DNA of 64,000 bases from Octopus sinensis (taxonomy: Eukaryota). Positions 14,201-40,827 of this stretch are shown here, one piece after another. Under the pieces are notes generated by a model. That model ran no database searches and had not been told where the DNA came from. It saw only the letters and a program-made list of their open reading frames with translations. Position 1 is the stretch's first letter. Each line of letters starts with the position of its first letter. Location: contig NC_043009.1 in the NCBI RefSeq assembly GCF_006345805.1, positions 72,044,001 to 72,108,000 of the forward strand, written 5' to 3'. A program made the translations under genes and the position numbers.

Positions 14201-14827
14201 GTTTGTGAAAATATAAAAGTAAACAGTGGAGTTAGATATCTTTATATTCCTGACAAACAGCTTTGAGCAGTTTTCTTCATTAATGAAATACAGCTTTTAA
14301 TACAGCAGCACTCCTTCAGCAAACAGTGTAGGCAGAACTTATACGTGGTGGAACTGCGCCCATGTATGTTCATATATATATATAAAACATACTTAACCTA
14401 AATCATTGGAAAGCTGCAGCTTGTCATCCAGGGAAAATCTCTTCATAGACATTGGGTTAAAAACCAAAATATACATCAAACCTACATCATCATCATCATT
14501 GTCGTTTAATATCTGCTTTCTATGCTGGCATGGGTTGGACGGTTTGACTGAGGACTGGCAAGCCAGAAGGCTGCACCAAGGAATTCAGTAATTTGTCTGG
14601 AAATATATTTAATCCAAAGTGTTTCTAATCTTTTAACAGATTAAATCATTGAGATGGAATTCTATGGAGATAGAATTGGCTGGGAATGAGTGAGGTTTTG
14701 ACCATTTGATCATGGACTACATTCCAATGACACAGTTTGGTACCCAACCATCAGATCTGAGAAGAAAAAAGATGAAGAGAGAGAGGAGACAGACAGACAA
14801 ACAGAGCAAGGGCAACAAGAGATTGAG

Positions 14828-15689
14828 TATCTACAGTGTAAATGTACTGCCATGGGAACTAAATTTGCCCCAGTATACATGAAATCAGTAATGGGATAAC
14901 TGAAGCAAAAACTATAAAAGAAAACTATGGCACTAGTTTTAGAAAATATAAAAGGGCTCATAGAATAGATTTCTTGATAACTGTTTTTTAATCTGAAGAA
15001 AATCTGTAAATAATTTAGAGGAATTCAGTATCCTTTTGATCAATTTATATCAAACCCTAAAGAAGACTGGCAACACAAAATTAACTTTTCTCAACATAAT
15101 GATAATTAAAAATAACACTGACATACAATGGATCAACATTATAAAGACATGGATATGCATCAATATCTGAGCAGTGAACCATGTCACCCAGCATATATAA
15201 AATGCAATATCCCATATTATCACTCAACCTCTCTCTCTCTATCTTGCAAACCACAATCCCCTTTCCATATTCCCCTCCCAACTCTATCCACATTATTACT
15301 CTCCCCACTATCACCTCCACACACCCACAATGATAAAATCACTCCTTTCATTATACTTTTCATCAAAATCATCATCCTCTCGTATTCTTGCTTCAGGGTG
15401 GCCCTTCTTTAATCTTGCAAGTGACAAGGTGACCATCACTAGCAAGATAACACTTTGTGATATGGATGGCATTAGGAAGGGCACCCAGCCAGGGAAACCA
15501 TGCTGGAACTGAGATGTTCACAATAGCAAAAGAGATACTTTGAAGAGTACATCTTTTATCCTTTACTTGAAAGTCTAGTCAAAATGATCAATCCCTGTAT
15601 TTAATTCTTAAAGTCTGATGCTTATTCTGTCAGCCTCTTTTGTTGGACTGCTAAGTTACAGGGACATGTGCAAGCCAGCCTTGGTTGTC
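14828..15689 (+). repeat. Duplicated segment (copy 2) inserted between AGATTGAG direct repeats
   Basis: 862 bp = copy 1 (990 bp) minus 128 bp. AGATTGAG at 14820-14827 and 15691-15698. Confidence 0.93.
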
Positions 15690-16989
15690 TAGATTGAGAG
15701 AGAGAGAGAGAGAGAGACAAAGACTGATAGAGAGAGATAGAGAGATGATAGTAAGATGAGACAGAAAGGCAGAATGATAGAGAGAGAGGGGGAGAAGGGG
15801 AGTGAGGGAGAGAAAAAGACAGATTATTCCTAAAAACATTTTACCAGAAAGGTGATATGATCTGAAAATAACATTTGCAGACAGTTTATAAATTGTGTTG
15901 CCATCACTAGGCAACAGCATCGCTTAGCAACAAATTTTGGATGGTCAGAGATTATGATCATCATTATCATCATCACTACCACCATCATCATCATCATCAT
16001 CAACACCATCATCATCATTATCATCACCAACAGCAACAGTGTCATTGATGTAAAGTCCATTTCTCTCTGTTAGCAGGAACTGAATGAGTCTGCAGAATAG
16101 TGAATCACTTATTCTATCACCTCATTGTAAAGCCAGGATGAAACCTTACCAATTCTCAGGCAGTTCTGCTGTTAGACATGTTTTATTGCATTCAGATTAT
16201 TCGGTCAAATTTAATGCTTATTTCTTTCAAATTAATTATTTTTAATTAATCATGCATTAACTCATGATTTTGAGATTTCAATGATGTGAGTGTATATTTT
16301 TAGACTGACATTATAGGTTAGGTGTGAGAAGCTGGATATGGCCAATCTGAACATAAAACAGGGACAATATCTTCACCAGAAATGGTCGGATTAAAAGTTA
16401 CAGGATCAATCCTTGGCACCCGCAGCTCCAATAGATCTCCAATCAAAGATGTTCCACCTGCAATTATCTTTCCTTCTATTCATACTGGAATCACATCTGG
16501 AACTATATTACTCAATGTGTTCTTCCTTTTTTAAGGCAGCAGAGTGTGTGATTTGAAGAAAGCTTGGCTGGTATTTTTATTAAGTGAAGCCACCATGTCG
16601 ACGATGCTTCACCGGCATTTATGGCAGTCTTTTAATACTGCCATCAACCAGCTACCAGCTAAGACTTGCAGACAGTTAATAAATTTGAATAAATCTTTGA
16701 ATCTGATTCAAATAATGCTGAAGAATGGTCCAATTGAATAGATTACCATACTTCCCACAGAATTTGTATTTTGTATTTAAAATGTCACCTCTGCACCCCA
16801 TAAAAACAACAATAACAACAACATAAAAACACACGTACAGAGACAGACAGATACATCCTTGATCTCCAAAACAGTTTAAGAAATATTTCAATAGGAAAAT
16901 ATAATAATATTCTCTCTTCTTTATGATTATTACAACCATTAACATTTGTTTTGGTTTAGAGTTCTTCAAAAGATGTATTTGTATGTGTA

Positions 16990-17114
16990 TGTTAATATAT
17001 ATATATGTGTACATGTGTGTGCATGGGTGTGTGCACAGTGTATGTGTGTGTGTGACTATGTGTAGGTACACATGGCTGTTGCAAGTTTATATTGTGTGTG
17101 TGTGTGTGTGTGTG

Positions 17115-17162
<48 letters not shown>

Positions 17163-17283
17163 TATATATATATATACATATATATTTACATATATATATA
17201 TATACACACATATATATATATATACATATATATTTACATATATATATATATACACACATATATATATATACATATATATTTAC

Positions 17284-17319
<36 letters not shown>

Positions 17320-17533
17320 ACATATAAAGTATGAAAGTACATCTAGATATGGGTGAGTGTGTGCGTGTGATTAGATATGTGTATATTATATGTGTATTTA
17401 TATGTATGTGTGTGTACATATGTATGTTCTTACAAATAAATATGTATATATGTACATATATGTGTGTTTATATATATATATATTTATATATCTATGTTTA
17501 CACATATGCATACACATATACATATGAGTGTGC

Positions 17534-17583
<50 letters not shown>

Positions 17584-17771
17584 ATGCACACACATACATA
17601 TGTTTATACACATACATAGATAGGGGTTGAGTGAACATTTCAGGAGTGAAGGTGTGGGGAGGAAGAAGGACTCAGGAATGAAATCAGACGTAAAAACAAC
17701 CCACAAAAACAATTCCCTGGTTAAATAATAAATAGACTGCATTAGAAATGGAGCTTCCTGTATTTTGTCAC

Positions 17772-17813
<42 letters not shown>

Positions 17814-17977
17814 TACATACAAATGTACATGTACTTATTTCTATTACATACATACTGATACACACACACATACATACAAATATACACATATATAGCAATA
17901 TATATATATATTTATATACCAACACTATCAGCAATATAAACACACACATGTATAAAAGCATATCACATTCTCATACA

Positions 17978-18036
<59 letters not shown>

Positions 18037-19210
18037 ACCATATTACAGCCTCACATATACATACCTATACACATACATATTACATACTCACTCACACACA
18101 CAAGCTTATTACATTGACACATGTAAAAAGCAACAAGTAAATACAGGCATATACATACATCCAGCAGCACACAGATTAAGGGATCTACACACTCTCACAA
18201 TGACACACATATGCACACACAGCAACTAAGAAATACACAAGTGCATATATACACATATACACATTTGTGCAAATAGACACAGTGTAACAGATATGAACCA
18301 ACATACTCACACACACAAACACAGTTGCACTGTGACACACAAATACACACACGGCAATGCTGCAGTATATATATATATATACCAACGTAGCAAACACACA
18401 CACGCATATATATGAATATACATGCATACATATGCACGTGCATGCATGCATGCACACATACAGACACACACACACACACAAACAAACATACACATGAACC
18501 AATGAAAGAATATCGTTAATAATTTATTAGTTTCAGGCATGAAAATATCTGGAGATCAACTGACAGAACCATGAATATTCAGAAGCAATATGGGTTATTT
18601 GCAGGCAAATGAGTCATTAGGCACATGAATACACACACATACGCGCACACACACACATACACACACACACATATATATACATACACACTCATACATATAC
18701 ACACACACACACATATATATATACACACATACATATATATATATTACATAGGCACACATACATATACACACACACATACATATATATATATACACACACA
18801 CATACATATATATACACACACACATATATACACACACATACATATATATATACACACACACATACATATATATACACACACATATATATATACACACACA
18901 TACATATATACACACATACATATATATATACACACACACATATATATATACACACACACATATATACACACACATATATACATACACATACATATATATA
19001 CACACACACAAATACATATACATACACACACACACATATATACATACACACACACACAAATATATACACACACACACACACATAAATATTTACACACACA
19101 TACATATATACACACATGCACATATATACACACACATACATATATATACACACACACACATATATATAGAGAGAGAGACATATATGTACGTACATACATA
19201 TATGTGTGTA
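16990..19210. repeat. Long compound (CA)/(TA)/(TG) low-complexity microsatellite field
   Basis: Direct reading. Includes a ~40-bp higher-order unit repeated about three times at ~17155-17295 and a dense CA/TA tract at 18625-19200. Confidence 0.9.
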
Positions 19211-20639
19211 TAAAGAAACCTCCGTCTCCTCCTTTGCCTCCTTCTTCTCTCAAGGGACAACAAAAACATCAACAACATGAACCATGCCAGTATCAACACC
19301 AAGAGTGAAAAACCGAAATGCAATAAGCGAAGGCGCCATTCTCTAAGTAGGCTGCCTCTCATTACAACCCAATGTTGCACACAGAACTAAAAGAACATGG
19401 CCTGGCTGATTTCTGGTGGAAAGATGCCTGGCAGAAGACCAATTTGGTTGAACTTTTTGGAGTCAATGGCTTTTTTTCTTTTTTACAGCCACAGATGGTT
19501 ATAATGAAAATGACAGGAGTGTGTAAGGGCGGGTGTGTGTGTGTGTTTGCAGCTTATTGTATTCTGTTGCACAGAGATAATGAAATATATAGACTACGAC
19601 AGATTAACAGTTTCAGCAACAGATTAACCACAGAAACAGCAGATTCATTACTATAACACCACATTAACCTGTGTAACTAGTGCAACCATAGATTCTAGTA
19701 TAACTAGTACCAACTATAGATTCACAATACAGTGGAAGGGGGGGAGGGATCTAATTTACTTTTGATATTTTGCTTGAGTACGAAATGGCAGACTCATTAG
19801 CACAAGGGGCAAAATGCTGAGTGGCATCTCGTCTGTTTTTATGTTCTGAGTTCAAATTCCACTGAGGTCGGTTTTGGCTTTGATGAAATAATTACCACTT
19901 GAAAACAGGGATCAATGTACTTGGTTTACCCCCAGCTCCCCAAAAATTGCTGGCTTTGTGCCAAAATGTGAAACAAATATTTTGCTTGAAAATTTTGAAG
20001 TTCAATATTTGTCAATAGCATTGATTACCATCTTCTTGGAAACATAATACACACACACACACATGCTCTGTAAGTGTAGAATTGGTCAATTCTGATTGGT
20101 TAGTTGCTTTATGGCTGCTCCAAAGTCGAATCTTTCTAAATGAAAACTGTAATCGATGCCTTTGCCTCTTCACTTAGAACAGAAGCCATCCACATGGTCG
20201 GTCACTTTGCTAGAAATAACAGTCAAATCTTACTTCCATTTCAAACAAGAAAGATAGTTAATATTGCCCAAAATGTTGTCTGAAAATAAGGCTAAATAGT
20301 CATGGCTGGGATGTCAGTGACCATTGGGCAGAGCAGAGGCTAAACAACAACCACCACAGGTCATAGCCTTACCTGCTAGAAAAAACACCTCATAGAAAGA
20401 AGAAAGGTACACTGAATAATTTGCTCCTTGATGCACTACACCTGAATATATGATGAGATGGTCACGGTTGGAATGCCTTTGATCACAGATCAATAACATA
20501 GAGCTGAACAACAGTAACAAGAGCAGCAGTTTAAGCCAGTGAGTTTCCTGGTAGTCTCTCAACTTGCTAGAAATAGGTGATAAATTTCACATTCATTAGA
20601 AAATGTGGCCTTAAATAAGAAAAAAAATATCTTACAGTT

Positions 20640-20868
20640 TTAACCCTTTAGCATTTAAGCCAACCATTTATGGCCCTAATATTCTCCCTGTTTTAATGTT
20701 CAAACTGGCGAGATCTGGCCTCTCACACCTACTTGACAATGTTATTCTAAAAATAAACAACCACATCATCAAAATCTTGAAGCTATGAGAGAATGCAAGA
20801 TTAGTTCAAAGCAATGACACTAAATAAACATTATATTTGACAGAGTAATCTGAATGCTTAAGAATTTA
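20640..20868 (+). mobile_element. piggyBac-type MITE family 1 (TTAA-CCCTTTAGCA..TGCTAAAGGG-TTAA)
   Basis: TTAACCCTTTAGCATT start; ~225-bp body shared with copies at ~16186-16410(-), ~39441-39660(+, ends AAAGGGTTAA) and 43097-43323(-). CCC/GGG ends with TTAA are piggyBac hallmarks. Confidence 0.75.
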
Positions 20869-21194
20869 GGGTCCTTCATTCTATCTGTACCAATTCAGCC
20901 TCATTTCTAACTTCCCAGCACTTCTTGTGTCTTCTCTTTCAAAAGCATCCTGTGTTTAAATGATAGAATTCTTTCCTCCTCCTCCTCCTCCTCCTCATGG
21001 TACATAAACTTATTCCATTTTATGCAATTCAGTTTGGTCCCTGAGTCAAGAGTTCAATTTCTATCATTGGCACTGCACCATGGCAGGTTGTGAGTCACCA
21101 AATAAAGCCTCACAATATCAGCACTCTCTTCCTCAGTCTCAGGTGAACCAACGTCTTCTGAGTAGAATTTGGTGAAGGGAAACTTACGGACGCT

Positions 21195-21258
<64 letters not shown>

Positions 21259-21624
21259 AAACAATGTCTATGTTTACAAGCTAAAAGCTGGTGTCAATGT
21301 TCCCTAAGTGTAGCAGTTCAATATACAGAAATCAATAAAACAAACACAAGACTGAAATAAATAGAGGTATTGATGTGATTGATTAAAACCCATCAAAACA
21401 GTGTCCCAATATGTCTTCAACCCAACAAGTGAAACCAGCAAAAGAATAAAAGAATATTAATGTGGCTGTGTGATAAGAAGCTTGCTTCCCAACCACATGG
21501 TTCTGGGTTCAGTCCTACTGCATGGTACTTCTCTTCTACAATAGCTTCGGGCCAACTAAAGTCTTGTGAGCAGATTTGGTAGATGGAAACTTAAAGAAGC
21601 CTGTTGTACATATATAAATATGTG

Positions 21625-22002
21625 CCGGTAGCACATAAAAAGCACCATCCGTATGTGGCCGATGCCAGCACCACCTCGACTGGCTTCTGTGCCGGTGGCA
21701 CATAAAAAGCACCATCCGAACGTGGCCGATACCAGTGCCGCCTTGGCTGGCTTCCATGCCGGTGGCACGTTAAAAGCACCAACTGATCGTGTCCGATGCC
21801 AGACTCCCCTGGCACCTGTGCAGGTGACACGTAAAAAGCACCCACTACACTCGCGGAGTGGTTGGCGTTAGGAAGGGATCTAGCTGTAGAAACACTGCCA
21901 GATCAGACTGGAGCCTGGTGCAGCCTCCTGGCTTCCCAGACCCCAGTCGAACTGCCCAACCCGTGCTAGCGCAGAAAACGGACGTTAAACGATGATGATG
22001 AT
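21625..22002 (+). mobile_element. RTE LINE 3' end with sub-repeats, directly after a partial SINE A (21460-21620)
   Basis: GTGGCACATAAAAAGCACCATCCG units, then GGAGTGGTTGGCGTTAGGAAGGG..GGACGTTAAACGATGATGAT. Confidence 0.85.
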
Positions 22003-22239
22003 ATTTATATATATATATACATATATGTATATGCACTTTAAGGTCCTCATGGAAAAACCCACAAAAGCCACAGGTGCCTGAACAACAGGGTAAGAGCCCT
22101 TCTCCTTTGATTCCCTTTTTACAGGGGCACACTCAGAACTGGTCCTTTCACACTGGCCATTCTTCCAACATTCACCAGCCTTTCAATAAACTTGCTACAA
22201 GGCAACACTTCCCTCTCCACCTTCAATAATTTTTTTCTT

Positions 22240-22607
22240 TTTATTTCAGTCATTTGACTGTGGTCATGCTGGAGCACCACCTTTAGTCAAGCAAATCGAC
22301 CCCAGGATTTATTCTTCGTAAGCCTAGTACTTATTCTATCGGTCTCTCTTGCCGAACTGCTAAGTGATGGAGATGTAAACACACAAGCATCGGTTGTCAA
22401 GCAATGTTGAGGGGGACAAACATATGCACACAAACATATACATACATATATATATATATGATGAGTTTCTTTCAGCTTCCGTCTACCAAATCCACTCACA
22501 AGGCTTTGGTCGGCCCAAAGCTATAGTAGAAGACACTTGCCCAAGGTGCCACGCAGTGGGACTGAACCCAGAACCATGTGGTTGGTAAGCAAGCTACTTA
22601 TCACACA
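22240..22607 (-). mobile_element. SINE family A, near full length
   Basis: Colinear with 41873-42291. Confidence 0.88.
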
Positions 22608-22894
22608 ATAATAATAATAGTAATAATAATAATAATAGTAATAATAATAATAATATTAATAATAATAATTCTTTCTACTATAGACACAAGGTCTGAAATT
22701 TTCAAGGAGTGGGATTAGTCAATTACATCAACCCCAGTGTTTCACTGGTACTTAATTTATCGACCCCGAAAGGATGAAAGGCAAAGTTGACCTCAGTGGA
22801 ATTTGAACTCAGAGTGTAAAGATAGGCAAAAATACTGCTATGCATTTTGCCCAGTGTGCTAATGGTTCTGCCAGCTCACTGCAGCAGCAGCAGC

Positions 22895-22921
<27 letters not shown>

Positions 22922-22925
<4 letters not shown>

Positions 22926-23370
22926 TCGATATAAACGTATCTGTCAAGACCTACCAAAAACTGAGCAAATATAAAGATCTTGAAATAGAAATCAGCAAAA
23001 TGTGGAAGCTGAAGACTAAAACAATACCTGTTGTCATAGGTGCCCTGGGAATGATAGCGAAAGGGACTGATTGCTACCTAACTCAGATACCAGGAAACCC
23101 AAAAATGGCAGAAGTTCAAAAGATAGTGCTCATGGGAACTGCTCATATCCTACGCAAAATACTCTCTATGTAATCTCAAGGTTTAAAACAAACATAATTT
23201 TCGGTTTAAAAAAAAAAAAAAAAAAAAGACATTCATTAGTACAACATCACCCCCACCACCACCAAATATATGGCACACTAGGCATAACAACAACATGAAC
23301 TTCCAACCCTGTTGTCTCTTGAGGTCTCTGGGTGAGACTTGGAGCCAACTTGTACAAATATAAAGCAAAA
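22922..23370 (+). mobile_element. R4/Dong-like RLE-LINE 3' fragment
   Basis: DINVSVKTYQKLSKYKDLEIEISKMWKLKTKTIPVVIGALG..VQKIVLMGTAHILRKILSM*, the K..KY..L C-terminus of restriction-like-endonuclease LINEs. Preceded by (TAA)n, followed by (GAA)n. Confidence 0.85.
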
Positions 23371-23697
23371 GAAGAAGAAGAAGAAGAAGAAGAAGAAGAA
23401 GAAGAAGAAGAAGAAGAAGAAGAAGAATATGTATGGATATGTTTATGTAAGCTATTAGTAGAAATATGAACTGGGCTAATTTAGCTATTTCTTTGAAGAT
23501 TGACGAAATAACAAACAACCTTACTTGATTTTTAAATCTTATTGGACTTTCATGAGAGGCACCTACATCAACCTGATTGATTCCAGAGAAACAAGCAGCT
23601 AATTTGTTGATATACTCAACAATTTCAGAAGCTACGGCAAAATGGAGCTACTAATTTGCATACCATAACATGTTAACAGTTTATTTAATATCAAGGA

Positions 23698-23885
23698 TCA
23701 TCATCATCATCATCATCGTTTAACATTCGCTTTCCATGCTAGCATGGGTTGGACGTATGACTGAGGGCTGGCGAACCAGATGGCTGCACCAGGCTTCAAT
23801 CTTGATCTGGCAGAGTTTCTACAGCTGGATGCCCTTCCTAACGCCAACCACTCCGAGAGTGTAGTGGGTGCTTTTACATGCCCCA
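23698..23885 (-). mobile_element. RTE LINE 3' tail
   Basis: Reverse complement of ~1560-1745. Other short tails at about 14484-14580(-), 41550-41625(-), 43585-43690(-), 49800-50065(+), 51155-51335(-), 59225-59275(+). Confidence 0.85.
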
Positions 23886-25438
23886 TGCCGATCTGATATA
23901 TATATATATATAAAGTAGTGGAAGAAAAATGGGTCAGTGCTGATGACCTTCTAAGCTCTCTTGGACTGATGAACTTCATGTAGCTTAAACCCAATCCAAA
24001 AGAGATGAAGTTAATATCTTCCTAAAACTCAAAAACCATCAATGACGAAGGAACAAAATATCCAAAACATTAAAATGGCAGTCGGGGGTGGGGAGGATTA
24101 TTGGTCAAGTGAAATCAGACCTATGATTAAAGATGTTCCATCCATGAACAATCTGATTTCTTGTAGATCTAAGACATATTATACAACATGTTCATTCTTT
24201 TATAAGACAACGGTGCGAACTGAAGAAATTTGGCTGCTATTTCTAACAGAATCAAAAGCCCACAAAAAAGGCTCCATGTTGTTTCATGATGGCATCATTA
24301 CTAGAGAGAATAACTAAGAATCTCAGACAATGATTATTTTTCTGTGAGGGCAACTCATTTGCAATTCAGACTGGCCATGGTGCCTAGACAGGTTGCCTTC
24401 TCTGTGAATGCAGAAACCGCATCTCTTTTGAGATATTTTATAGATTTCAAGACAACTGGTAATGTATTGGGGGATAAAGCAATATCCCGTCAGAATTATT
24501 TAATTCTGATCTGATTTTATAGAATATTTTAAATAATGATATCAGAGAATTCCCAGTAGTAAAAGAGATTGGTGATGGTAACCTACTGAAACAGAAGAAA
24601 AAAAAAATTTGGTTTCACAAATATGTTAAAATATCTAAATAATTGCCAACAAAAACCATTTTGGTATCATTTGATTTAATGTAATTTGCGGTAAGGAAGA
24701 GAGAGAGAGAGAGCATGCCAAAAATCAAAAGAGGATAATTTGATTAAATAAAAACAAACGTTTATTTTCACCTTTGACTTTTTTTTTTTTAAATAAGAAC
24801 TTGTATATTACAAGTTTTATTTAATTAAACAACAAAACTGCAATAACATCAACAAATCAGGAAATTAGGGTAGCGAGAGAGAGAGAGAGAGAGAAGAATG
24901 CCAGACCAAATCCATTAAAACAGTTTAGTTCTGCTCTTTAGTTTCAAAGTTTTGAGTCTGTTGGGATGAGTTTTATTTTTTGGTTTCTCAATTCTCCAGG
25001 TTCAATAAAATGTGTATAAGTAATACACTGGGGTTAAAACTGATCAACTGTGCAATTTTCCCCAATATCAAAAACCAATCAACCATACTATTTTGCTCAA
25101 TACCCAAACTGGCTTCAAGCCAAGTGAAAAGGAAATCGGTATTAAAACTAGATGCCAGCAACTCGGTTTTTGCTATTGTATTTAAGATAGAAAAGGAAAA
25201 GTAATTTAGGAAACAGTTTTATTTCTTAGACTCCACAATGGCATCAATAGTTTTGGAATAATGATCTGTTGTTTTTCTCATGAGAAATCACAGAGAAATT
25301 TCAAGACAAAAGAAAGCAAGACATACACACACATATTCATAAAATGTTGTATTATGTTCAATTAAAGAAGGAAAAGAGAAATCTTTGACAAAAAATATGA
25401 ATGTATACATGTATATTTATGTATGAATACATTGAAGC

Positions 25439-25492
<54 letters not shown>

Positions 25493-25811
25493 GAGAGAGA
25501 GAGAGAGTATTGAACAGTATTACATTTTTAAGGAAATCTTATTCAATGGTTACAATTCTGTGTAGGTGTCGTGTATTATGTGGTGTGCGTGTGTCCATTT
25601 GTGAATGCTGTAGAGACGGCTCCATTGCTGTGTGGTTAACAAGACTGTTTCATGACAACATGGTTCAGGGTTTAATTTCACTGCATAGCATCTTCAACAA
25701 CCATCTTCTACGACCATCATACTGACCTTTACTGACCAATAAACCTTGGAAATGAAATCTGGTACATGTAAATAACATAAAAGTCTGCTGTGTGTGTGTG
25801 TATTTACATGT

Positions 25812-26128
25812 GAAGGAATGTGGCCAAGTGGTTAAGGTATTCAGCTTAAAATCAAAAGGTTGTGAGTTCAATATCTGGCAGCACATTGTGGCCTTAAGCA
25901 AGGCACTTCATTTCACATTGCACCAGTCTACTCAGCTGGCAAAAATGAGTTGTATTTGAAAGGGCCAGCCTTGTCACATTCTGTGTCATGCTGACTCTCC
26001 CTTTCAGTTATGTTAAGGGAATGCATGTCTGTGGAATACTCAGCCACTTTGCATGTTAATCCCATGAATAATCTATTCCATTGATTGGATTAGCTGGAAC
26101 ACTCACTGTTGTAACCAACAAAGTGCCA
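25812..26128 (+). mobile_element. tRNA-derived SINE, family C
   Basis: TGGCCAAGTGGTTAAGG (A box), GAGTTCAATATCT (B box), TTGTGGCCTTAAGCAAGGCACTTCATTTCACATTG core. Related head on - at about 59420-59570. Confidence 0.65.
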
Positions 26129-26156
26129 ATAACAATAATGATATGTTTACAGTCAG

Positions 26157-26195
<39 letters not shown>

Positions 26196-26751
26196 AGACA
26201 TGGGTCTTGTGTTTTGCAAGGACAAATGAATAATGTCGTTTAGAACATATTTATGTTAATGAAATCCAGATTCGTTTCGTCTGGCCATCCTCCTGTCCAT
26301 ATGGCTGAGAAACAAAGGTTAAAAGAGGACAAAATTCAAATCTAGGACATGAAACAGATTTTAATCTCCAACAATCATGTCCTAATTTATAGAAATATGC
26401 ATACACAAAAGTACATTGGTATTTTTGAATAATGTAAATATAGAATCTTCGATTTTGTTTATATTTTTTCCTAGCAGATAATTAATGGCATCAAAGTAAA
26501 GGCAATGTCAAGAAAGAACTGAAGTGAGAGAGGGCAATGTCAACATCTACACAACAGCCACACACACACACACACACATACAATGGCCTCATACTTACAC
26601 ACAAATATAGCTACGGGCAAGTCATTTGGCATAAATTTTCTGCAAATGAACAAAATCCAAAAATAGAGCAATTTTTATTTGTTTTTTTTATTAATTTTTT
26701 TGTTTGTTTTTTTAGTAAATAAATAAATAGACTTGAAAGGAAAAAACTCAC

Positions 26752-26826
26752 CAATTGAATGATCAAACAAAACTCTGATAGATGTAAAAGATTTACTCAC
26801 CTGAAATAGAAGAGAAACAAAAATGG
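26752..26826 (-). promoter_or_regulatory. Candidate recursive splice site (3'ss immediately followed by 5'ss) with 49-nt cryptic exon
   Basis: Minus strand: CCATTTTTGTTTCTCTTCTATTTCAG|GTGAGT (junction 26801/26800); second donor TTG|GTGAGT at 26752/26751. Confidence 0.55.
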
Positions 26827-26908
26827 TAAATAAACACATCAAATGGAAAGACTAACAAGAAACTAGAGAGAGAGAAGGCTTTGAGAATTAATTTGGTGAT
26901 GTTTATGT

Positions 26909-27780
26909 TCATCATCATCATCATCATCATTTAGCGTCCGTTTTCCATGCTAGCATGGGTTGGACGGTTCAACTGGGGTCTGGGGAGCCCGAAGGCTGCA
27001 CCAGGCCAGTCAGATCTGGCAGTGTTTCTACAGCTGGATGCCCTTCCTAACGCCAACCACTCCGAGAGTGTAGTGGGTGATTTTATGTGCCACCGACACA
27101 GGTGCCAGACGAGGCTGGCGAACGGCCGCGCTCGATGGTGTTTTTATGTGCCACCGACACAGGTGCCAGACGAGGCTGGCAGACGGCCACGCTCGGATGG
27201 TGTTTTATGTGCCACCGACACAGGTGCCAGATGAGGCTGGCAGGTGCCAGACGAGGCTGGCAGACGGCCACGCTCGGATGGTGTTTTTATGTGCCACCGA
27301 CACAGGTGCCAGATGAGGCTGGCGGACGGCCACGATCGGATGGTGTTTGTTACGTCCCCAAAGCACGGAGGCCAGTCTATGCGGTACTGGCTACGGCCAC
27401 GTTCGGATGATTTTCTTGTGTGCCACCGGCACTGGTACCACAAAGATACAAATTCCATTTATGCTCATCTATTTTGATTTGTTTTGATTTGATTTGATTT
27501 TCACTTGCCTCAACAGTCTTCACAAGTGTCACTTGCCTCAACAGGTCTTCACAAGTGTCACAAGAAGGAAGGTATGCACAGGTGGACTGTCTACGTCGCC
27601 GGGTCTTCGGATGGTGTCTTTTATGTGCCACCGACACAGGTGCCAGATGTGGCTGGCGAACGGCCACGATCGGATGGTTTTCTTGTGTGCCACCGGTACT
27701 GGAACCACAAAGATACAAATTCCATTGATGTTCATCTATTTTGATTTGGTTTGATTTTCACTTGCCTCAACAGGTCTTCG
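26909..27780 (-). mobile_element. RTE LINE 3' UTR with expanded ~57-bp tandem array
   Basis: (CAT)n tail, conserved end, and about five units GTGCCACCGACACAGGTGCCAGACGAGGCTGGCAGACGGCCACGCTCGGATGGTGTTTTTAT, plus an internal duplication of the upstream block. Confidence 0.9.
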
Positions 27781-28197
27781 TTTATAATAATTATCATTGT
27801 CATCACTATCATTTTCCTCCACGTCATCATCATGACCATCATCATCATCTCTGTCATTAGTCATCAATCAACACAGTCATCAACATCATTATCATCACTG
27901 TTATCGTTATTATTATCATCAGCACCAACATCCTCATCATCACTATCATCACCACCATCAGCAGCAGCAGCATTATCAGCAACATCATGCTGAGTCAATA
28001 GTAAACTGGGGTAGGAAGGTCGAGGCTTTGTGTGGTTCATATGACTTGCTGAAGATAGCAGCCAATATTCCATTCAAAATTCTCTCTCCCACTCTCTAAA
28101 ATGAGGATCACACATTTTAAGATATTAATGAGAGGTGGCCATGGTTTGTTGAGACAGCTGACACCTCTCAGCTATTATGTCTTCTTCGTATTGAAGC

Positions 28198-28231
<34 letters not shown>

Positions 28232-28232
<1 letters not shown>

Positions 28233-29684
28233 TATGATAAAGATGAAGCCCAAGTCATTTCCCTCGTTGATACGGTGTATACCTTCAGTGCTGATAACAG
28301 AATGGAGTTCGGACTAAAAAAGTGTGGTGTGTTAGTCTTGAAGAGAGGCAAAATCAAATGTATGGACGGGCTAACGATACCGTCGGGGGAGGATATGAAG
28401 CAGATAAAAGAGACGGGCTATAAGTACTTGGGGATTTTGGAAATGGATAAATTGATGGAGAAAGAAATGACAGAAAAATTTAAGGTGGAGTACTTGCACA
28501 GACTGAGACTGATCCTTAAGTTGAAATTAAATGGAAGGAATAAGATCAAAGCTATCGACCCCTGGGTGGTTTCACGCCTTAGATATGGAACTTGCATGGA
28601 CAGTAGATGAACTAAACAGCTTAGACATAAAGACAAGGAAGTTGCTAACAAGATATGGGTCACACCACCCAAAAAGTGACACAGACAGACTGTATGTACC
28701 AAGAAAAAGAGGGGGAAGAGGACTTATTGGAAGCGAACACAGTATTAGAGTAGATGAAAACAACATAGCATGGTATGTAAAAAATGCCACAGAACCGCTA
28801 TTATTAGAAGTAGGAAGGTCAGGCTTGTGTAGGATGAAAGACTGCAAAGATAAAGCACTACACAAGAAATTGGAAACGAATGATATTGAAAATAGGTGGT
28901 TAAAGAAAAGAATGCATGGTCAATTTCATAGGGATGTTGAAGATAAGACAGAAAAAGAAAAAAGATGGCTGTGGATGACTAAAAGTGATTTAAAACCAGA
29001 AACAGAGGCTCTAATCTGTGCTGCCCAGGATCAAGTGCTAAGAACAAACTACATAAAATACAGAATAGACAACACAGCAAAAAGTGCAGTCAATGTACAC
29101 TACTAGCCCAGAAGGAATATAAGAGATGCCACAACAATATAGCCAGGCTTGTTTGTCCATTGGACACTTTGCAACAAGTATGGACTTGACAAAGCAAAAA
29201 ATTGGTATGACCACAAACCTGAAGGCATCGTCGAAAATAGAAATACAAAGATCCTATGGGATTTTATGATTCAGTGCGACCATGAGATAGAGAATAAGAA
29301 GCCATACATAGTCTTAATTGAGAAAGAAAACAAACTATGCTGGATCATAGATATAGCATGCCCAGCTGACAACAAGGTAGGCGATAAAGAAGGAAGAAAA
29401 GTCGAGAGATGACAGGTTAGCTTGGGAAGTTAAGCAGTTGTGGTTGATGAAAAAGGTAGCAGTAGTACCAATAATTGTCAGAGTCCTGGAACAGTGAGCA
29501 AAAATCTCTACGTGGAACAAATAGGGGCTGGAATATGGGTGGAGCACTTGCAGGAAACAGCACTGCTTGGAACCACTCGAATACACCGGAAGGTGCTCGA
29601 AAAATAAGAGGTGTTACCTTAGTTCACTGGTAGTGAACAGCTAACACTGTAGTACATCTCCAGTATTAGAAGCTGTGCAAAAGC
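28232..29684 (+). mobile_element. R4/Dong-like RLE-LINE, 5'-truncated (RT C-terminus, thumb, RLE), frameshifted
   Basis: MEFGLKKC..YKYLGILE..LNGRNKIKAI; HHPKSDTDRLYVPRKRGGRGL; MHGQF..LKPETEALICAAQDQ; KILWDF..PYIVLI..IIDIACPAD..KE. The CCHC knuckle is deleted. (TAA)n on both flanks (28200-28231, 29685-29706). Confidence 0.9.
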
Positions 29685-32499
29685 AATAATAATAATAATA
29701 ATAATAACAATAGAAGAAGAAGAAGTCAATCACATCAACCCCAGTACTCAGCTGGTACTTAATTTATCGATCCTGGAAGGATGAAAGGCAAAAGTGATTT
29801 TGGTGGAATTTGAACTGAGAACATAGTAGCAGACGAAATACTGCTAAGCATTTTGCCAAGGGTGTTACCGATTCTGCCAGCTTACCACCTTCAATAATAA
29901 TAATAATGATAATAATAATAATCTTTCTCATTGGCCATGTTAGCCAAGGGGTTTACAAAGAAGAACATGGAGAAGGAACAGATAAGTGATAGAAGGACAA
30001 GTAGAGGGGTGGAAGACATTAAACAGTACAGAAAGGGATAATTAAACTTTCAAGGCACAAATATTTTGCATATTAATGAACAAAAAAATACAATTAACAT
30101 ACAAAACAAGAAACAATAAAAAGAAGCAACCATAACATTTTGTGGGTTAAGTGATGTTGGAGGACTCCACTTGCTATTGTCCATATTATTGTCTTGTAAA
30201 CCCAAAAGAACCCGTTGGCATTTTAAATCATTTGGGATTGCAAAACACCAAACATTTTCAGAGTAGAATTGTTTTAGCTCACTATGGTGTCTTCATTCCG
30301 TTTTTACTGCCAATCTATCTTTTCTATGTTGCCAATATTCCAAACCTAATTATGCCTGCATTATTTTTACTTTATTGGAAAATCCATAGCACCACCACAG
30401 ATGTATGATTCTTATCTATAAGTTGTCCGATTTTCAAAGGATGGTGAATCTCAGTTCTTCATCATCTTCATTATTTTTCCAAAGAGTGGAATCATTGTTG
30501 TTCTGGTTTACTTGTTTTATGTTCACTTATTTTTTTTTTTTTTAGATTTTTGTCTTCTTGATTGAACTTAAGACCACGTGGTTAGTAAGCAAGCTTCTTA
30601 ACCATACAGCCATAAAGTACCAGTCAAGTACTGGGGTTGAGGTAATTCATTAACCCTCCCCCTCTCACCAACATTGCTGACCTTGTGCCAAAATTTGAAC
30701 CAATCGTTTTTGTTGTTGCTGTTGTTTCTTTTATTTGCTGCCAGATGACTCGTCTGCCGAATGAATCGTCCCCTTCTACTATGAGACTTCTTTTTTTATT
30801 ATTTTCATTTTATCATCACTAGAGGGATGAAAAGTAAGGTCAGAATGAGTTTTAATTAATTAAATGAATGCCTAAAAGGGGAATTAGCAGATGTCACTGA
30901 TACAATTGGAACACAAGAGAAAATCTAAAGGCATAGTCTCCAGTGCGATGTAACAATGATGGCAAGAGAAGCCTTTTACATCAATATTCCTCAAAATAAA
31001 GAACATACAAATTGAATGCTTTGTTTAATCAGTTATCTCTGAGCCACCTACTTATTTCTCGACCATGGCAATCCACCACCATCAATAACAACAACAACAT
31101 TCATTAATTTCATAATCCCTTTTAATTCCAGTAATCATAAACAAAATTCTAAGAACTGGATAATCTTTTAGTAAACCAGTCAACAGAATATTTTTACTAG
31201 TTGTTCTTTTTTCATTTTTTTAAAGATAAGTTAACAGTGGATAATGTAGTCCTAGATAGAATGTGCTTAAAATTAAAAGAATGGAATTGGTAACATCAGG
31301 AATATCTTTTATTATAAGTTTGCTTAGTCAAGTCTGATGTTGGATTAAACAACATGATTTCAACTTAGAATAGTAAATGATGGAACTGGATACATTTTGC
31401 CAGTTGCTCAATGTAATCAGGTGGATTTTTCTCATTGATACAAAGTCACAGATCTTCATGGCTGACTCCAGTACTTGGCTGATATTAATGCAGAAGCATG
31501 AAGGACAAAGTTAACTGGTTGGATTTGAATTCAGAATGCAAAGCACCATAACAAAATGCTGCAAGGAATTCTACCAATTCTTTGCATGTGCAAATATTAG
31601 CATGGAAGTTCTTCGGTTACTTAAGCCAACCTGAATCCCAAACATGCTTAGTTCATTCAAATAGAATCTGAACAAAAATGGTTTAACTTCTAGATAATAA
31701 AACATCTATTTTAATAAAACATCTATTTTAAGGTGAGACATGACGATGAAGAATTTCGCTACTTTTTCCCAATGGCGCCAACTTGTTAAGCTTAATTGAA
31801 CTGAATCTGTGTGATGTCACATCTCATTCATTTCATTATCTTTCACTGCCTGAAGATCTCGAAATTTATTGCTATGAAAGATTCTCGTTGACCGTATCAA
31901 TAAGATTGCTTTCTGCTGCTATTTGTATCTATTCATCATAATTTGATAGTAAATATTGTTGTTGTTTTTGTAATTAGCTCATTTCTGGCCAATCAATCAG
32001 CTGATCAAAAGAAACACTAAAAATATTGATAAATCGATTCTTCAGAATTCTTCAATCTATTTTATTCACCATAAATATGACCACTAAAATCTCAAAGATT
32101 ACAAAGTGGAACTCCATAGTCTTAATATTGAAATGTCTGTTGTTAAAAATTCTTGACACTTCAAATACAATGGTCTTAAGGGAAGAAATCAACCCTATTG
32201 ATAATTCGGATGGGCTCCAAAGATTCTTTACATTTGAGCATTTTGTCGGTTCTTGCAGAATTATTGATATTTCAATTATTTGTATATTATTCATTTACTG
32301 ACGTCGGTCATTAGACTACAGCCATGCTGGGGCACTGCTTTCAAGGGTTGTTTGGGTATATTAATATAATACTTTGTATTACTTATTCTGTTAATCTTTG
32401 TTTGCCAGACCCCTAAGTTATAGAATACAAACAAAAGCAATGGTTTTTAAGTGATGTCATCATAGAAACATACACACCATTCGTAATGTCTGTCAGTTT

Positions 32500-32596
32500 G
32501 TATGTATGTATGCATGCATGGATGGATACATGTATGCATGCATGCATGGATACATGTATGCATGCATGCATGGATACATGTATGCATGCATGTACA
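32500..32596. repeat. 24-bp minisatellite (ATGCATGCATGCATGGATACATGT), about 4 units
   Basis: Direct reading. Confidence 0.85.
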
Positions 32597-34407
32597 CATG
32601 CACATAGAATACAATCGCTCAATGGCTCAATGCCAAGCGTGTGTGTGTGTGTGTGAAAAGGGGGAGAAACAAACGTCTCTGATTTAAATCACCCCAAGTA
32701 ATGAATGAATGGAGAAGTGAAAGGCTGTTTCGTGCATTCCAGCCCCTGAAACTTACAGGGGCTGAAACTAAATATGGGAGAGAGCAAGAGACAGAGATAA
32801 GGAGAAAGGAAAGAGAGAGAGAGAGAGATGTATAGGGGAAAGGATGTAGTGTGTAAAATGTGTGTGTCTGTATAAAATATGTGTGTCCGTGTAAAATGTG
32901 TGTGTCTGTGTATGAGAGAACACAAGTTTGTGTTTAGTATGAGTTTGGCTCCAAATGTGAGAGCAAAATTTTCATGGAGGATCCCCCTACGTGAACTTTA
33001 AATCACACTTTGAATATTGTAGTTCCTCTTATGCAGTAATATGGGTTAAACATCATAATGGTTGGAATGCCTTTCATCAAATAGTAGGGTGTAAGTTTAG
33101 AGTTATGTGATCTTTATAGTTTAATGTTGCATTAGTGAGGTAGATGACAGAAGTGTGTTGAATGAGAGACAAGACTCCAATCTTACAAAAATTTCTTTTA
33201 AATTCCTTGTTTTGGATTTTACATTGATTTTGTCCTCAAACACAGGTTACTAGGTTCTGTACCATCATGACTTCCACAACAAATGTTATGTTCTTATCAT
33301 TAAATTTTCATGAGAGAATGCTAAGATGATTTCCTATTGCCATCTCTGAGTAATTCTTACACGACCAGCTGAAAACCAAGACTGTAAACGGCTGGAACAA
33401 ATTCCACAAAATGCTTTGTGCAAAGTTCTTACAATTCTACCAATCTACCTCTTTTCAATGGAACTTTATCAACTGCAAAATGTTGAAAAGCAAAGTTGGC
33501 TTGGAACATAAAGAACTAATTCACTGCTTAATACAGGTTTAGATATTGGTTTATTTGAGAATGGATTGTTCCAAAATGTTTCAACAACTGAATTAGAAAA
33601 TTTGATAAAGAACTGTGCTTTATTTAGTTACTGTCTACGAGAGGGGTGCAGCGCCATTGTGGCTGTTATAGAATTTGAAATCATGGTTAGTAATTCAATC
33701 ATTTCACCTACAACCACAATATTATCTATTTCACTTTTTAATAATTCCATCATTTGAAAGAGCTCTTACACACACACACACACACAACACAGAGATATAT
33801 TTTCCCCACTCTTTCTTTCTTCATTTTGTCATCTGCCTCTTCCTTATCTCTTTCTCTCCCTCCCTCCTATCTCTGTCTTCTCAGGCTTTCTCTCTCTTTC
33901 TTCACCATTACTCCCCTCTCTCTAAACGATCCTCTCCCCACATCCCAAACAATTTCTCTTCCATTCTATGTTTATTAAATCTCTCTCTGCCTCATCACTC
34001 TACTTCCTTCAGCCTCTCTTTCTCCTCCACTTTCCCTCTACCTACTTCTCTCAGTCTCACCTTTATCTTGCTTTATATCTATAAAACTTTCTGCCATTTA
34101 TTCCAACTCTCCCTGCTCTATCTATCTATCTGTTTGCCTGCCTGCCTGCCTGCCTACCTACCTACCTATCTATCTATCTCTATCTATCTATCTCTATTTA
34201 TCTATCTATCTCTATCTATCTAGCTAGCTAGCTATCTTTCTCTCCCTCTCTCGATATTATCTACCAAACTCTCTTCTTCCATATCTCTCTCTCTCTATAA
34301 ATATCTCTCTCTATAAATATCTCTCTCTTTCTCTCTATTACCAACCAAGCTCTCCATCCATGCATCTCTCTTGTCATTTCCTCACACTCTCTCCTTTCAC
34401 CACCACC

Positions 34408-34449
<42 letters not shown>

Positions 34450-34942
34450 CCCAATTCCACAAGCCAATATTTTGGTTAGAAGGAGATCTGTAAAAACTCT
34501 AGAAAGAAGGGTTAATTCAATTATTTATTCATAAACATCAAAGTCGTCAAACAGATGAAATCAATTCCACAAACGGTAAAGCAGCATTGTATCAGATTCC
34601 CAGTTTCTCACTTAACAACAGATTCTTATTTTGTCCTTTTTTTCTTTTGATTTCAAAAACTAAAAAAGAAACAATTCTTACAAACAAACAAACAAAAAAA
34701 GACATACAAGTCCAATACAATTGAACATCTTTTATTAATGTTTAGTTTTTATCTGTGCAACTTGCAGTGATTGCCAGCTTCTTGTCTCTGTTTCTATTCT
34801 CCTTGGTGTCCACTCAACCTATATGATTAGTTCTCAATAGAAATATGGCTCAAAAGAGTTTTGAAAAGCTTTTATCAAACCCTGTATTCTTGCTCCACAA
34901 ACCTACCCCTAAACCGCAATCATTTTTATTTCCATTCCCCAA

Positions 34943-34992
<50 letters not shown>

Positions 34993-35669
34993 CCATACAT
35001 ATATCAGTCTCACTACTTACTTACCAGTCCTTTCTCTTACCTACCTTCCTACCAACCTGCATGTCTGTCTGTCTGTCTGTCTGTCTATACTGCTATCTCT
35101 ATATATTGGTGGATTTATTTGTCAACCAGTTTGTCCTTCTATTCATCAATGTATCTATCTGTATCTACCAATACACACACACACATATATATACAAACAT
35201 ACACAAAGAAATAGACAAATAAATGAATATTACATATACACACACACACACACATATATATATACACAAATACATATGTATATGCATATATATGTACATA
35301 CATATATGCATATACATATATATATACATACATACAAACACACACATATGTATATACACACTCATATATATAAATACACACAAAGAAATAGATAAATAAA
35401 TAAATATATATATAAATAGGTATGTGTGTACACAGACACACACACACACACACACGTATATTTACAAATTTGCTTCATTCATGATTGAATTCTTAAGAAC
35501 TCTGAAGAAGTCAATGATGAACCTCTGCAAATTTATCAAAATAAATAAATATCAAAGTATCGAGATCTTTAGTTTGTGACCATTCTTATTCTCACAGACA
35601 AACATCCTAATGTGTAAATTTACTTCTTCATATCATCATCATCCATCCATATCTATCTATCTGTCTATA

Positions 35670-35706
<37 letters not shown>

Positions 35707-35975
35707 ATCTATCTTTCTAGCTATCTTTCTATCTGTCTGTCTGTCTCTTTTTATCTATTTATCTATTTCCCTATCTGCATATGTATGTCTATCAATCAAT
35801 CAACCCATCGCCAGTGTTCTTTTCGCTTTTTGCAGCTTTAAACTGGAGCCAAAAGCTGAAGTGTAACAAATTGAGAGACAAAGAATCCATCAATTTAATC
35901 GATAATTCAACTGGGTCAATACATTTGAGAGCAGGTCAACAGGAAAAGAAGGGGTAAGAGAGAAAAAGGGAGAAA

Positions 35976-36012
<37 letters not shown>

Positions 36013-37524
36013 AGGGGAAAAGGGAAGAGAGAAGAAACAGTTTAGGAAGTAGGAAGATCTAATACCAAAATCTATAGAAATACAAAATCTCAACTAAGGA
36101 TCAAAAACTAAACAAAAATCAAAAACAAAATTGAGGTGGGGATTGAAGGTTCTGTTTTGTTTTTGTTTTTAATCTATTATGAATCCAATAATTGGTTTAA
36201 CATGAGAAAATTGGTTCTGTTATCTGGCATCAAATAGCAGACATACATATGGCATTCACAAATGATTGATTGGTGATGCTGTCTAACACTAAATGATCCA
36301 AGGGTTCAAATGAAAAGTTGCAAAGGAACAGTTATTCTACAGAAATGGTAACAAACAACTTAGCTTACTTGAATGGTTTTTTTTATTGAAATGTTATTGT
36401 TTAACCTGAGGTCAGCTCTTATCAAACAGACCTTATGATCAAAAACATTAAAACTATGGCAGTTCAAACGTGGTTTATCAAAAATTGACATTTCTTTTTT
36501 TTTTTTTTTTTCTAATTATTATTCTATGACAGTACAGAAAGGTTTGAGAGACACTTGGCTACTGTTTATAGCAGACTGAATTAATGTCGCATTCAGATAA
36601 TCAATAGAGTGTTGGACATAATAATTCTTGGTGTTGATTGTATGCTATTACATTCTGAGTTCAAATCCTGCCAAAATCAACCGTACCTAACATTATTTTA
36701 TAAAATAAATACCTATCATATACTGGGGTTGGTTGATATAATTAAATACAACTCTTCCTTAAAATTTGGGGCCTTTGTTAGGAATCAATGCAGAAGATGT
36801 TTAACATAGTTTTGAGTTCAAACTTTACTTCTTTCAGCCAAATTTGTTGTAAAGTAATGGATATAACACCATTTTCTTCAGTCTACTTGGCTGGTAAACA
36901 GTTCCCTCTCCTACTTTACAGTTAGGCGCTATAAAATTTAACACCTTTGTGATCATATTTCTAATGAAATATTTGAAAAAATACTGTTCATGCTTTCATT
37001 CTTTTTCTTAAATAATCAGGAATTTGGAGAGATTTAATGGAATAAATTTTCCACTCTAAAGTCGGTATTTAACATAAGACTGATGGATGATTCTAAATTA
37101 ATACAATTTAAAATAGCTTGTCTGTCACAGAATGAGAATCAGTCCCAAGTGGTTTGGTTTCAAAAGATTTAGATCTTTCCAGAGGTCATCTTACTCCTGC
37201 CATTGTGTTATGCTTTTTTGTAAAGCATAGAACTCACTTTCACCACAACACAAAAACAGCACCCTCCCCACTCCCAACCATAAAAAAACTATTAGTTGAC
37301 TTTGTCTATCCAAACAAACATAAAATAAATTATATAGCAACACATCTTCTAGTCCAGAGATTCTCAAACTTTTGGGGGCCCATGCCCTCCCCCTCATGGC
37401 CACATAATATCCTCAGTGCCCCCACCCCTATTTTTATGTATAAATAAATATTTTATATTTTACTAATTTGTATATACTATGAATCATTTGATATTTAATA
37501 TATTATTATATAATTTGTATGGAG

Positions 37525-38098
37525 ATAAGCTGTGCTTGAGAAGGCCTGACAAGCCAAGTGAGACCATAGCGCATGACCTGTGCCAGTGGGTGTAACCAGC
37601 CCACTTATGAGTACCTTTCATTCATTGGACAATAAACTTTGCTTGCAAAGACCTATTGAGGCAAGTGAAATCAAAATCAAAATCGCTGATGTGACCGATG
37701 ACAGTACCGCCTGATTAGCACTTGTGCCAGTGGAACATTAAAAGCACATCCGAGCGTGATCGTTGCAAGGGCCATGGATTGGCTCCCATACTGGTGGCAC
37801 ATAAAAAGTACCATTTGAGCCTGATCGTTGCCAGCATCGCCTTACCGGCACATGTGCCAGTGGCATGTGAAAAACAACATTCAAGCGTGGTCATTACCAG
37901 TGCTGCCAGACTGGCACTTGTGCCAGTGGCATGTAAAAGCACTCTTGGAGTGGTTGGCATTAGGAAGGGCATCTAGCTGTAGAAACTTTGCCAGATCAGG
38001 TTGGAGTCTGGTGCAGCCTTCTGGCTCACCAGTCCTCAGTCAAACCGTCAAACCCATACCAGTATGAAAAGAGGACGTTAATCAATGATGATGATGAC
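37525..38098 (+). mobile_element. RTE LINE 3' end (older copy)
   Basis: Colinear with ~1050-1745, from GCTGTGCTTGAGAAG to the (GAT)n tail. Confidence 0.85.

Positions 38099-38904: not shown

Positions 38905-38936
<32 letters not shown>

Positions 38937-40769: not shown

Positions 40770-40827
<58 letters not shown>

What the first reader, a model, noticed from the sequence alone, without database searches (positions are those of the whole stretch)
26746..26855. Recursive-splicing (ratchet point) signature with a cryptic exon
Seen on -: a ~49-nt AG-free, pyrimidine-rich run ending TTTCAG is directly followed by GTGAGT, so splicing regenerates a consensus donor. A second donor (TTG|GTGAGT) 49 nt downstream defines a frameshifting exon with immediate stops in two of three frames. 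Established: this is the architecture of Drosophila ratchet points and vertebrate RS-exons in very long introns. I know of no functional description in cephalopods. Inference: the window is inside a giant minus-strand intron removed stepwise.
Basis: partly seen in the sequence, partly recalled or inferred. Interest (0 to 1): 0.72.

Follow-up and report, generated by a model that had tools for sequence, protein, structure and literature searches.

The report
Octopus ratchet point in KLHL8 intron
Inside a 166,000-base first intron of the octopus KLHL8 gene, whose two ends are joined in spliced RNA, sits a fused "end-of-intron/start-of-intron" signal that likely lets the cell cut the intron out in two steps as flies do, although the halfway product itself has not been seen.

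Summary
The motif is real: on minus, 49 AG-free nt, TTTCAG|GTGAGT (26801/26800), and a second donor TTG|GTGAGT 49 nt on. The host gene is now identified. Contigs from two studies splice an upstream exon (window +75524) straight to exon 2 of kelch-like protein 8 (window -90283). The site therefore lies on the sense strand of a 165,806-nt first intron, would split it into 48,723 and 117,083 nt, and its 49-nt exon is absent from those contigs. Splicing into it would rebuild the same 9-mer as the first exon's own donor. Genome-wide the pattern occurs 178 times against 36-49 for four controls. Its members cluster, share strand (8 of 9 close pairs) and often carry a second donor 25-65 nt on (18 of 55, background 6.5%). 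Not shown: the splicing intermediate, sawtooth coverage, conservation. The scan noted similar sites on other octopus DNA before (unreviewed notes). Searches of the held literature found no mollusc report.

The parts
26803..26851 (-). AG-free, T-rich polypyrimidine tract of the internal 3' splice site; a TTGAT branch-like word lies about 42 nt upstream of the junction (branch point not tested)
26795..26803 (-). Candidate ratchet point CAG|GTGAGT: acceptor AG 26802-26801 fused to donor GT 26800-26799. After joining to exon A the donor would read CTG|GTGAGT, identical to exon A's native donor
   Evidence: matches the genome-wide pattern
26752..26800 (-). 49-nt cryptic (RS) exon, no ATG, would be 5' UTR; absent between exon A and exon 2 in the contigs of runs X1 and X16
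26746..26754 (-). Second (RS-exon) donor TTG|GTGAGT, followed by T/A-rich intron-like sequence
1..64000 (-). The whole window lies in intron 1 of the long kelch-like protein 8 (KLHL8) transcript. Donor of exon A: G000:C13:72119523 (L012; window +75523). Acceptor of exon 2: G000:C13:71953718 (L001:9718; window -90282). 165,806 nt including one 100-N run. An alternative upstream exon B ends at G000:C13:71988369 (L005; window -55631) and gives a 34,651-nt intron that does not contain the site
26899..27780 (.). Interspersed repeat (SINE-like; name recalled) starting about 100 nt upstream of the junction; the site itself lies in a block with no repeat hit within the 264 kb (26061-26898) and gives one genome hit

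Best explanation
The site is likely a recursive splice site (ratchet point) with a normally skipped 49-nt exon, lying on the sense strand of the 165.8-kb first intron in the 5' untranslated region of octopus KLHL8. Shown: exon A is spliced to exon 2 across this intron without the 49-nt exon in two RNA-like data sets, and the site has a strong acceptor fused to a consensus donor plus a second donor 49 nt on. Inferred mechanism, by analogy with Drosophila: (1) during transcription the acceptor at 26801 and the donor at 26751 define the short exon; (2) exon A is joined to 26800, removing 48,723 nt; (3) the joint rebuilds CTG|GTGAGT, the same 9-mer as exon A's donor, which outcompetes TTG|GTGAGT; (4) the remaining 117,083 nt, including the 49-nt exon, leave in a second step, so the mRNA equals that of one-step splicing. 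Transcripts that use exon B start downstream of the site and would not need it.
For: Host intron and orientation: 2 of 4 runs laid (X1, study P1; X16, study P7) carry exon A's 3' end directly on the exon-2 acceptor; 1 of 4 (X3) carries exon B; 1 of 4 (X4) had no contig. The boundaries are GT-AG. Class enrichment: Y9H3YNCAG|GTRAGT 178 matches against GTRATG 49 and GTRGAT 36; with CTG for CAG it is 39 against 41; Fisher p = 1.5e-6; local background GTRAGT:GTRATG is 408:504. About three quarters of matches are therefore excess. Second donor of 6.5 bits or more at +25 to +65: 18 of 55 test sites (12 of 36 discovery, 6 of 19 held out) against 6 of 48 controls (p = 0.02) and 194 of 2996 random positions; later 41-nt bins hold 4, 5, 1 and 4 of 55. 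Among the first 100 listed sites, 9 neighbour pairs lie within 200 kb (8 on C1-C12, where at most about 1.4 are expected), and 8 of 9 share strand. Sequence downstream of test sites is AT-rich like intron (median GC 31% against 37% for controls). Fly precedent: PMC8605326, PMC6110457.
Against: No read or contig of the intermediate (exon A joined to 26800) and no sawtooth were seen: the site itself was not covered by a read-laying run. A mature exon A to exon 2 joint is what one-step splicing also gives. Conservation was not tested. The site is at 29% of the intron, not near the middle, and leaves a 117-kb segment with no comparably strong second site, whereas fly segments are typically about 9-15 kb (PMC6110457, passage). 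About a quarter of pattern matches are expected by chance, and 37 of 55 test sites lack a strong second donor in the window. AG-exclusion length did not separate test from control sites (medians 54 and 42.5, p = 0.10), nor did flanking strand skew or CpG level. The two donors share GTGAGT, and the 2.5-bit advantage of the rebuilt donor rests on the -3 base in a recalled matrix.
Confidence: 0.78

Rival explanations
1. The 49 nt form a real alternative 5'-UTR exon, included in some tissues or stages (an expressed RS-exon or an ordinary cassette exon that happens to begin with GTGAGT). Inclusion would lengthen the two upstream ORFs that start in exon A (20 to 32 and 13 to 25 codons) and move their stop from 30 to 43 nt before the main ATG.
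For: It is the best-scoring minus-strand exon-like unit in the window. The two donors are close in strength. The frame entered from the exon A uORFs is the open one. Assembled contigs drop rare variants, and only 2 runs showed the long isoform.
Against: Both exon A contigs skip it. Ordinary exons starting with GT are covered by the GTRATG and GTRGAT controls, which are 4-5 times rarer. Candidate exon lengths show no frame preference (6 of 18 hand-copied lengths divisible by 3).
Confidence: 0.1
2. A chance, unused juxtaposition in an AT-rich, microsatellite-rich intron; the intron is removed in one step or at many weak, stochastic sites.
For: Controls show 36-49 chance matches genome-wide. No direct RNA evidence or conservation at the site.
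Against: The prior from class excess is about 0.75. The site is also on the sense strand of a very long transcribed intron, has a 49-nt AG-free tract and a strong donor at +49 (seen at 6.5% of random positions), and outscores every other AG|GT on both strands of the intron.
Confidence: 0.08
3. The acceptor is engaged but unproductively, as a decoy or dead-end pseudoexon that slows or lowers output from promoter A, not as a stepping stone.
For: Strong splice signals with no inclusion seen; decoy exons exist in large introns (PMC7373989, search listing and start of abstract only).
Against: A decoy needs no perfect donor exactly at +1 of the acceptor, yet the genome-wide excess is specific to that fusion.
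Confidence: 0.04

Closest known systems
Drosophila Beadex (Bx) intronic ratchet point with cryptic RS-exon (PMC8605326; introduction, section 6 and passages read)
   Same: Fused acceptor and donor; cryptic exon of about 50 nt with its own downstream donor; located in the 5' UTR; present only in the longer isoform of a gene with different transcription starts; exon skipped in mRNA.
   Different: The Bx intron is about 31 kb and its use is proven by RT-PCR and CRISPR alleles. Here the intron is 165.8 kb with SINE/LINE content, the segments would be 49 and 117 kb, and use is inferred.
Drosophila ratchet points genome-wide (Pai et al. 2018, PMC6110457; abstract and passages read)
   Same: AG/GT core in very long introns, enriched in first introns.
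   Different: Fly sites are near midpoints, give segments of about 9-15 kb, are conserved and are seen in nascent RNA. This site is off-centre with much longer segments; conservation and intermediates are untested.
Computational RP-site enrichment in insects and sea urchin (Shepard et al. 2009, PMC2773006; passages with Table 2 read)
   Same: Motif-level excess of fused sites in invertebrate genomes (4- to 22-fold over the antisense strand); about 4-fold here over permuted controls.
   Different: That study covers no mollusc and uses antisense of annotated introns as control. It reports negligible SINE/LINE content in invertebrate large introns, whereas at least 25% of this intron is interspersed repeat.
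Mammalian RS-exons (Sibley 2015, Blazquez 2018; known here only through the introduction of PMC8605326 and a search listing)
   Same: Exon definition followed by competition between two donors.
   Different: In mammals few sites are fully suppressed and many RS-exons are expressed or poison exons; this one is 5' UTR and skipped in the contigs seen.

Membership tests
Intronic ratchet point with cryptic RS-exon (Drosophila type) | Strong 3' splice site directly fused to a consensus 5' splice site (YAG|GTRAGT) | tested here: met
Intronic ratchet point with cryptic RS-exon (Drosophila type) | On the sense strand inside a very long transcribed intron | tested here: met
   165,806-nt KLHL8 intron 1 defined by spliced contigs of two studies
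Intronic ratchet point with cryptic RS-exon (Drosophila type) | Downstream donor defining a short (about 50 nt) cryptic exon | tested here: met
   donor at +49; class-wide peak at +25 to +65
Intronic ratchet point with cryptic RS-exon (Drosophila type) | Cryptic exon absent from mature mRNA | tested here: met
   2 of 2 exon A contigs join exon 2 directly; contigs cannot exclude rare inclusion
Intronic ratchet point with cryptic RS-exon (Drosophila type) | Rebuilt donor stronger than the RS-exon donor | tested here: inconclusive
   11.0 against 8.6 bits with a recalled generic matrix; the scored 9-mers differ only at -3
Intronic ratchet point with cryptic RS-exon (Drosophila type) | Splicing intermediate: upstream exon joined to the site; sawtooth coverage; two lariats | not tested
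   no reads were laid on the site; all listed runs are assembled contigs, which cannot show level or sawtooth
Intronic ratchet point with cryptic RS-exon (Drosophila type) | AG|GT motif conserved above flanking intron in related species | not testable with these tools
   no relative genomes held; no look-alike window in the scan
Poison (frameshifting, NMD-inducing) RS-exon | Lies between coding exons so that inclusion breaks the main ORF | tested here: not met
   ATG is 63 nt into exon 2 with in-frame stops before it; database proteins P0001 and P0002 start there

The most novel reading that the evidence does not exclude
Octopus runs a fly-like, genome-wide programme of recursive splicing: at least about 130 strict-consensus ratchet points, defined by hidden 25-65-nt exons and chained along giant, SINE/LINE-laden introns in segments of 50-150 kb, far longer than in flies. 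That would put hard-wired stepwise intron removal in the third main bilaterian branch. KLHL8 is a clean test locus, with one promoter that needs the ratchet and one that bypasses it.
Probability: 0.62. Interest if true: 0.65.

Novelty: new member of a known kind. Interest (0 to 1): 0.52.

Why it matters
Recursive splicing is proven in flies and vertebrates and predicted from motifs in other insects and sea urchin; the searches run here found no report for molluscs. Octopus has very long, repeat-rich introns, the kind for which a repeat-pairing route was proposed instead of ratchet points (PMC2773006), so a working ratchet point here bears on how giant introns are removed and on how old the mechanism is. 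Both intron ends are defined by spliced RNA, so one RT-PCR or a junction query in total RNA tests it. The mechanism itself is known, which caps the interest.

Tried and rejected
1) Coding micro-exon (one frame is open): rejected because the intron is in the 5' UTR and mRNA contigs skip it. 2) Ordinary exon end CAG|GTGAGT with a pyrimidine-rich exon tail: rejected at class level by the CTG control, 39 against 41; no such exon is in the two exon A contigs. 3) Repeat-derived motif: the 201-nt stretch gives one genome hit (that search skips common words) and no hit within 264 kb. A small repeat family does inflate the genome count: 4 of 59 test loci and 1 of 49 control loci were dropped as near-copies before the donor counts. 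4) Search for RNA runs on 24500-27000: no RNA holder listed; neither for nor against. Run X4 gave no contig on exon 2; no evidence either way. 5) AG-exclusion length, flanking T/A skew (test 23 of 36 positive, control 24 of 29) and CpG ratio did not separate test from control sites. 6) Further ratchet points in the intron: none comparable; next best are 54371 (CAG|GTGTGT) and 20372 (CAG|GTAAGG with a poor tract). 7) Pfam on five window ORFs: 0 of 5 hit. 8) Paper search (any two of six terms) was swamped by unrelated papers. Joseph 2018, Duff 2015 and Sibley 2015 are not held. No supplements were opened; site tables or species lists in them could bear on the claim of no mollusc report.

Full report
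OBSERVATION. On the minus strand an AG-free, T-rich run of 49 nt (26851-26803) ends in CAG (AG at 26802-26801) and is followed at once by GTGAGT. A second donor, TTG|GTGAGT, closes a 49-nt exon (26800-26752). Two of its frames stop at once and one is open. CAGGTGAGT occurs once in the window on either strand. The 201 nt around the site give one hit in the 2.72-Gb genome, at G000:C13. A SINE-like repeat begins about 100 nt upstream, but the site lies in a block with no repeat hit in the surrounding 264 kb.

HOST GENE. I fetched 100 kb on each side. A minus-strand ORF starts 90 kb beyond the window's low end and encodes BTB and BACK domains. Its best database match is 100% identical, lies on a contig of the same length as C13 and is named kelch-like protein 8 [Octopus sinensis]. 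That protein and the O. bimaculoides one begin at this ATG, which lies 63 nt behind a splice acceptor with in-frame stops between. Contigs of four public runs (RNA by the tool's guess) were laid on that acceptor. Two of four (X1 and X16, different studies) stop at the acceptor and continue with letters that map to an exon ending at window +75524 before GTGAGT (exon A). One of four (X3) continues with an exon ending at window -55631 before GTAAGT (exon B). One of four had no contig. Only 30 loose letters per contig were shown, 18 of which I used for the search. CpG ratios peak at both exons (1.24 and 1.19 against about 0.37 in the intron), which fits two promoters (inference). So the long transcript has a GT-AG first intron of 165,806 nt, including one 100-N run, that contains the whole window. 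The site is on its sense strand, 48,723 nt from the donor and 117,083 nt from the acceptor. The 49-nt exon is not in either exon A contig.

MORE THAN CHANCE? The pattern Y9H3YNCAG|GTRAGT, shaped to admit this site, has 178 matches genome-wide. Swapping the donor tail gives 49 (GTRATG) and 36 (GTRGAT). Destroying the acceptor (CTG) gives 39 and 41. CAG against CTG gives odds ratio 3.8, p = 1.5e-6. In 427 kb of background GTRAGT is rarer than GTRATG, 408 to 504. So about 130-140 of 178 are excess. I examined 59 test loci (51 of the first 100 listed and 8 from the tighter pattern) and all 49 GTRATG controls, dropping 4 and 1 near-copies. A donor of 6.5 bits or more lies at +25 to +65 in 18 of 55 test sites, 6 of 48 controls (p = 0.02) and 194 of 2996 random positions. 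The window was chosen on the first 36 sites (12 hits) and held on 19 new ones (6 hits, p = 0.001 against background). Among the first 100 listed sites, 9 neighbour pairs lie within 200 kb (8 on C1-C12, where at most about 1.4 are expected) and 8 of 9 share strand (p = 0.04); within 400 kb it is 12 of 14. The one discordant close pair are repeat copies, and one concordant pair has identical 23-mers and may be a duplication. Results that did not help: AG-exclusion length, flanking strand skew and CpG ratio did not differ between test and control. All donor and acceptor scores use matrices typed from recalled generic animal frequencies.

MECHANISM. Shown: the intron, its two ends, the orientation, the fused signal, the second donor and skipping in two contigs. 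Inferred from the Drosophila model (PMC8605326): the acceptor and the +49 donor define a short exon; exon A is spliced to 26800; the joint reads CTG|GTGAGT, the same 9-mer as exon A's own donor; this donor wins over TTG|GTGAGT and the remaining 117 kb leave in a second step. The two donors differ only at -3 in the scored 9-mer, so some inclusion is plausible. Inclusion would not break KLHL8. It would add 49 nt of 5' UTR and change two upstream ORFs from 20 and 13 codons to 32 and 25, all ending before the main ATG. Transcripts with exon B start downstream of the site.

WHAT IS MISSING. No reads were laid on the site, and all listed runs are assembled contigs, which cannot show intermediates reliably or a sawtooth. 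No related genome is held, so conservation is untested. One-step splicing gives the same mRNA. The site is off-centre and leaves a very long second segment with no comparable site.

COMPARISON. It works like a Drosophila intronic ratchet point. The nearest case is Beadex, whose RS-exon is in the 5' UTR of the longer of its isoforms (PMC8605326). Fly sites favour very long and first introns but sit near midpoints with 9-15-kb segments (PMC6110457). Motif enrichment was reported for fly, mosquito, bee, beetle and sea urchin, with no mollusc in the table (PMC2773006). For membership, four sequence and mRNA features are met, donor ranking is inconclusive, and the intermediate and conservation are untested. 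Poison-exon membership fails.

NOVELTY. Full-text searches: 'recursive splicing' with 'octopus' gave 0 papers. With 'mollus' it gave 2 reviews on other topics with one mention of each term (listing only). With 'cephalopod' it gave 1 paper where both terms are in the reference list. (listings) added nothing on molluscs. Subscription papers are mostly not held. Earlier unreviewed notes of this scan report like sites in other octopus genomes without RNA; they are not independent evidence. What this locus adds is a host intron fixed at both ends by spliced contigs, and exclusion of the exon from them.

VERDICT. A likely ratchet point (0.78) in KLHL8 intron 1; a new member of a known kind in a phylum where I found no report; interest 0.52.

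Noticed in passing
L005, G000:C13 about 71988369 (window -55631) and L012 about 72119524 (window +75524): KLHL8 has two alternative upstream 5'-UTR exons 131 kb apart, each at a CpG-rich patch; exon A carries two upstream ATGs in frame with the main ORF that stop 30 nt before it.
   Followed up: partly
L014:5598-6060 (window +99598 to about +100060), plus strand: Apparently intronless ORF with a CS domain, resembling NUDCD2 (name recalled), 24 kb upstream of KLHL8 exon A on the opposite strand.
   Followed up: partly
window 52834-53928: About 320 copies of TAA followed by 49 of AGA, next to a decayed non-LTR retrotransposon-like ORF (53809-54646); similar fragments at 28236-29600. No Pfam hit; the element type is judged by eye.
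   Followed up: partly
window about 12030-13023 and 14828-15692: A recent local duplication of about 0.87 kb at 99% identity, one copy interrupted by about 127 extra nt.
   Followed up: no
L039, L042, L058, L095, L096: A small dispersed repeat family carries a perfect fused acceptor-donor (tract, CAG|GTAAGT); it could seed or mimic ratchet points.
   Followed up: no
P0001 residues about 570-630: The database model of this KLHL8 has an aberrant stretch where the O. bimaculoides protein has two normal kelch repeats, likely a gene-model or assembly error.
   Followed up: no
window 54371 and 20372, minus strand: Two weaker AG|GT sites in the same intron (CAG|GTGTGT with a fair tract; CAG|GTAAGG with a poor tract) that could be minor recursive sites.
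   Followed up: partly
G000 C12:6497239, 6632319, 6998727; C8:24376244, 24506579; C8:57541085, 57678793; C3:50377053, 50491803: Co-oriented chains of strict-consensus sites 115-370 kb apart, likely marking other giant introns.
   Followed up: no
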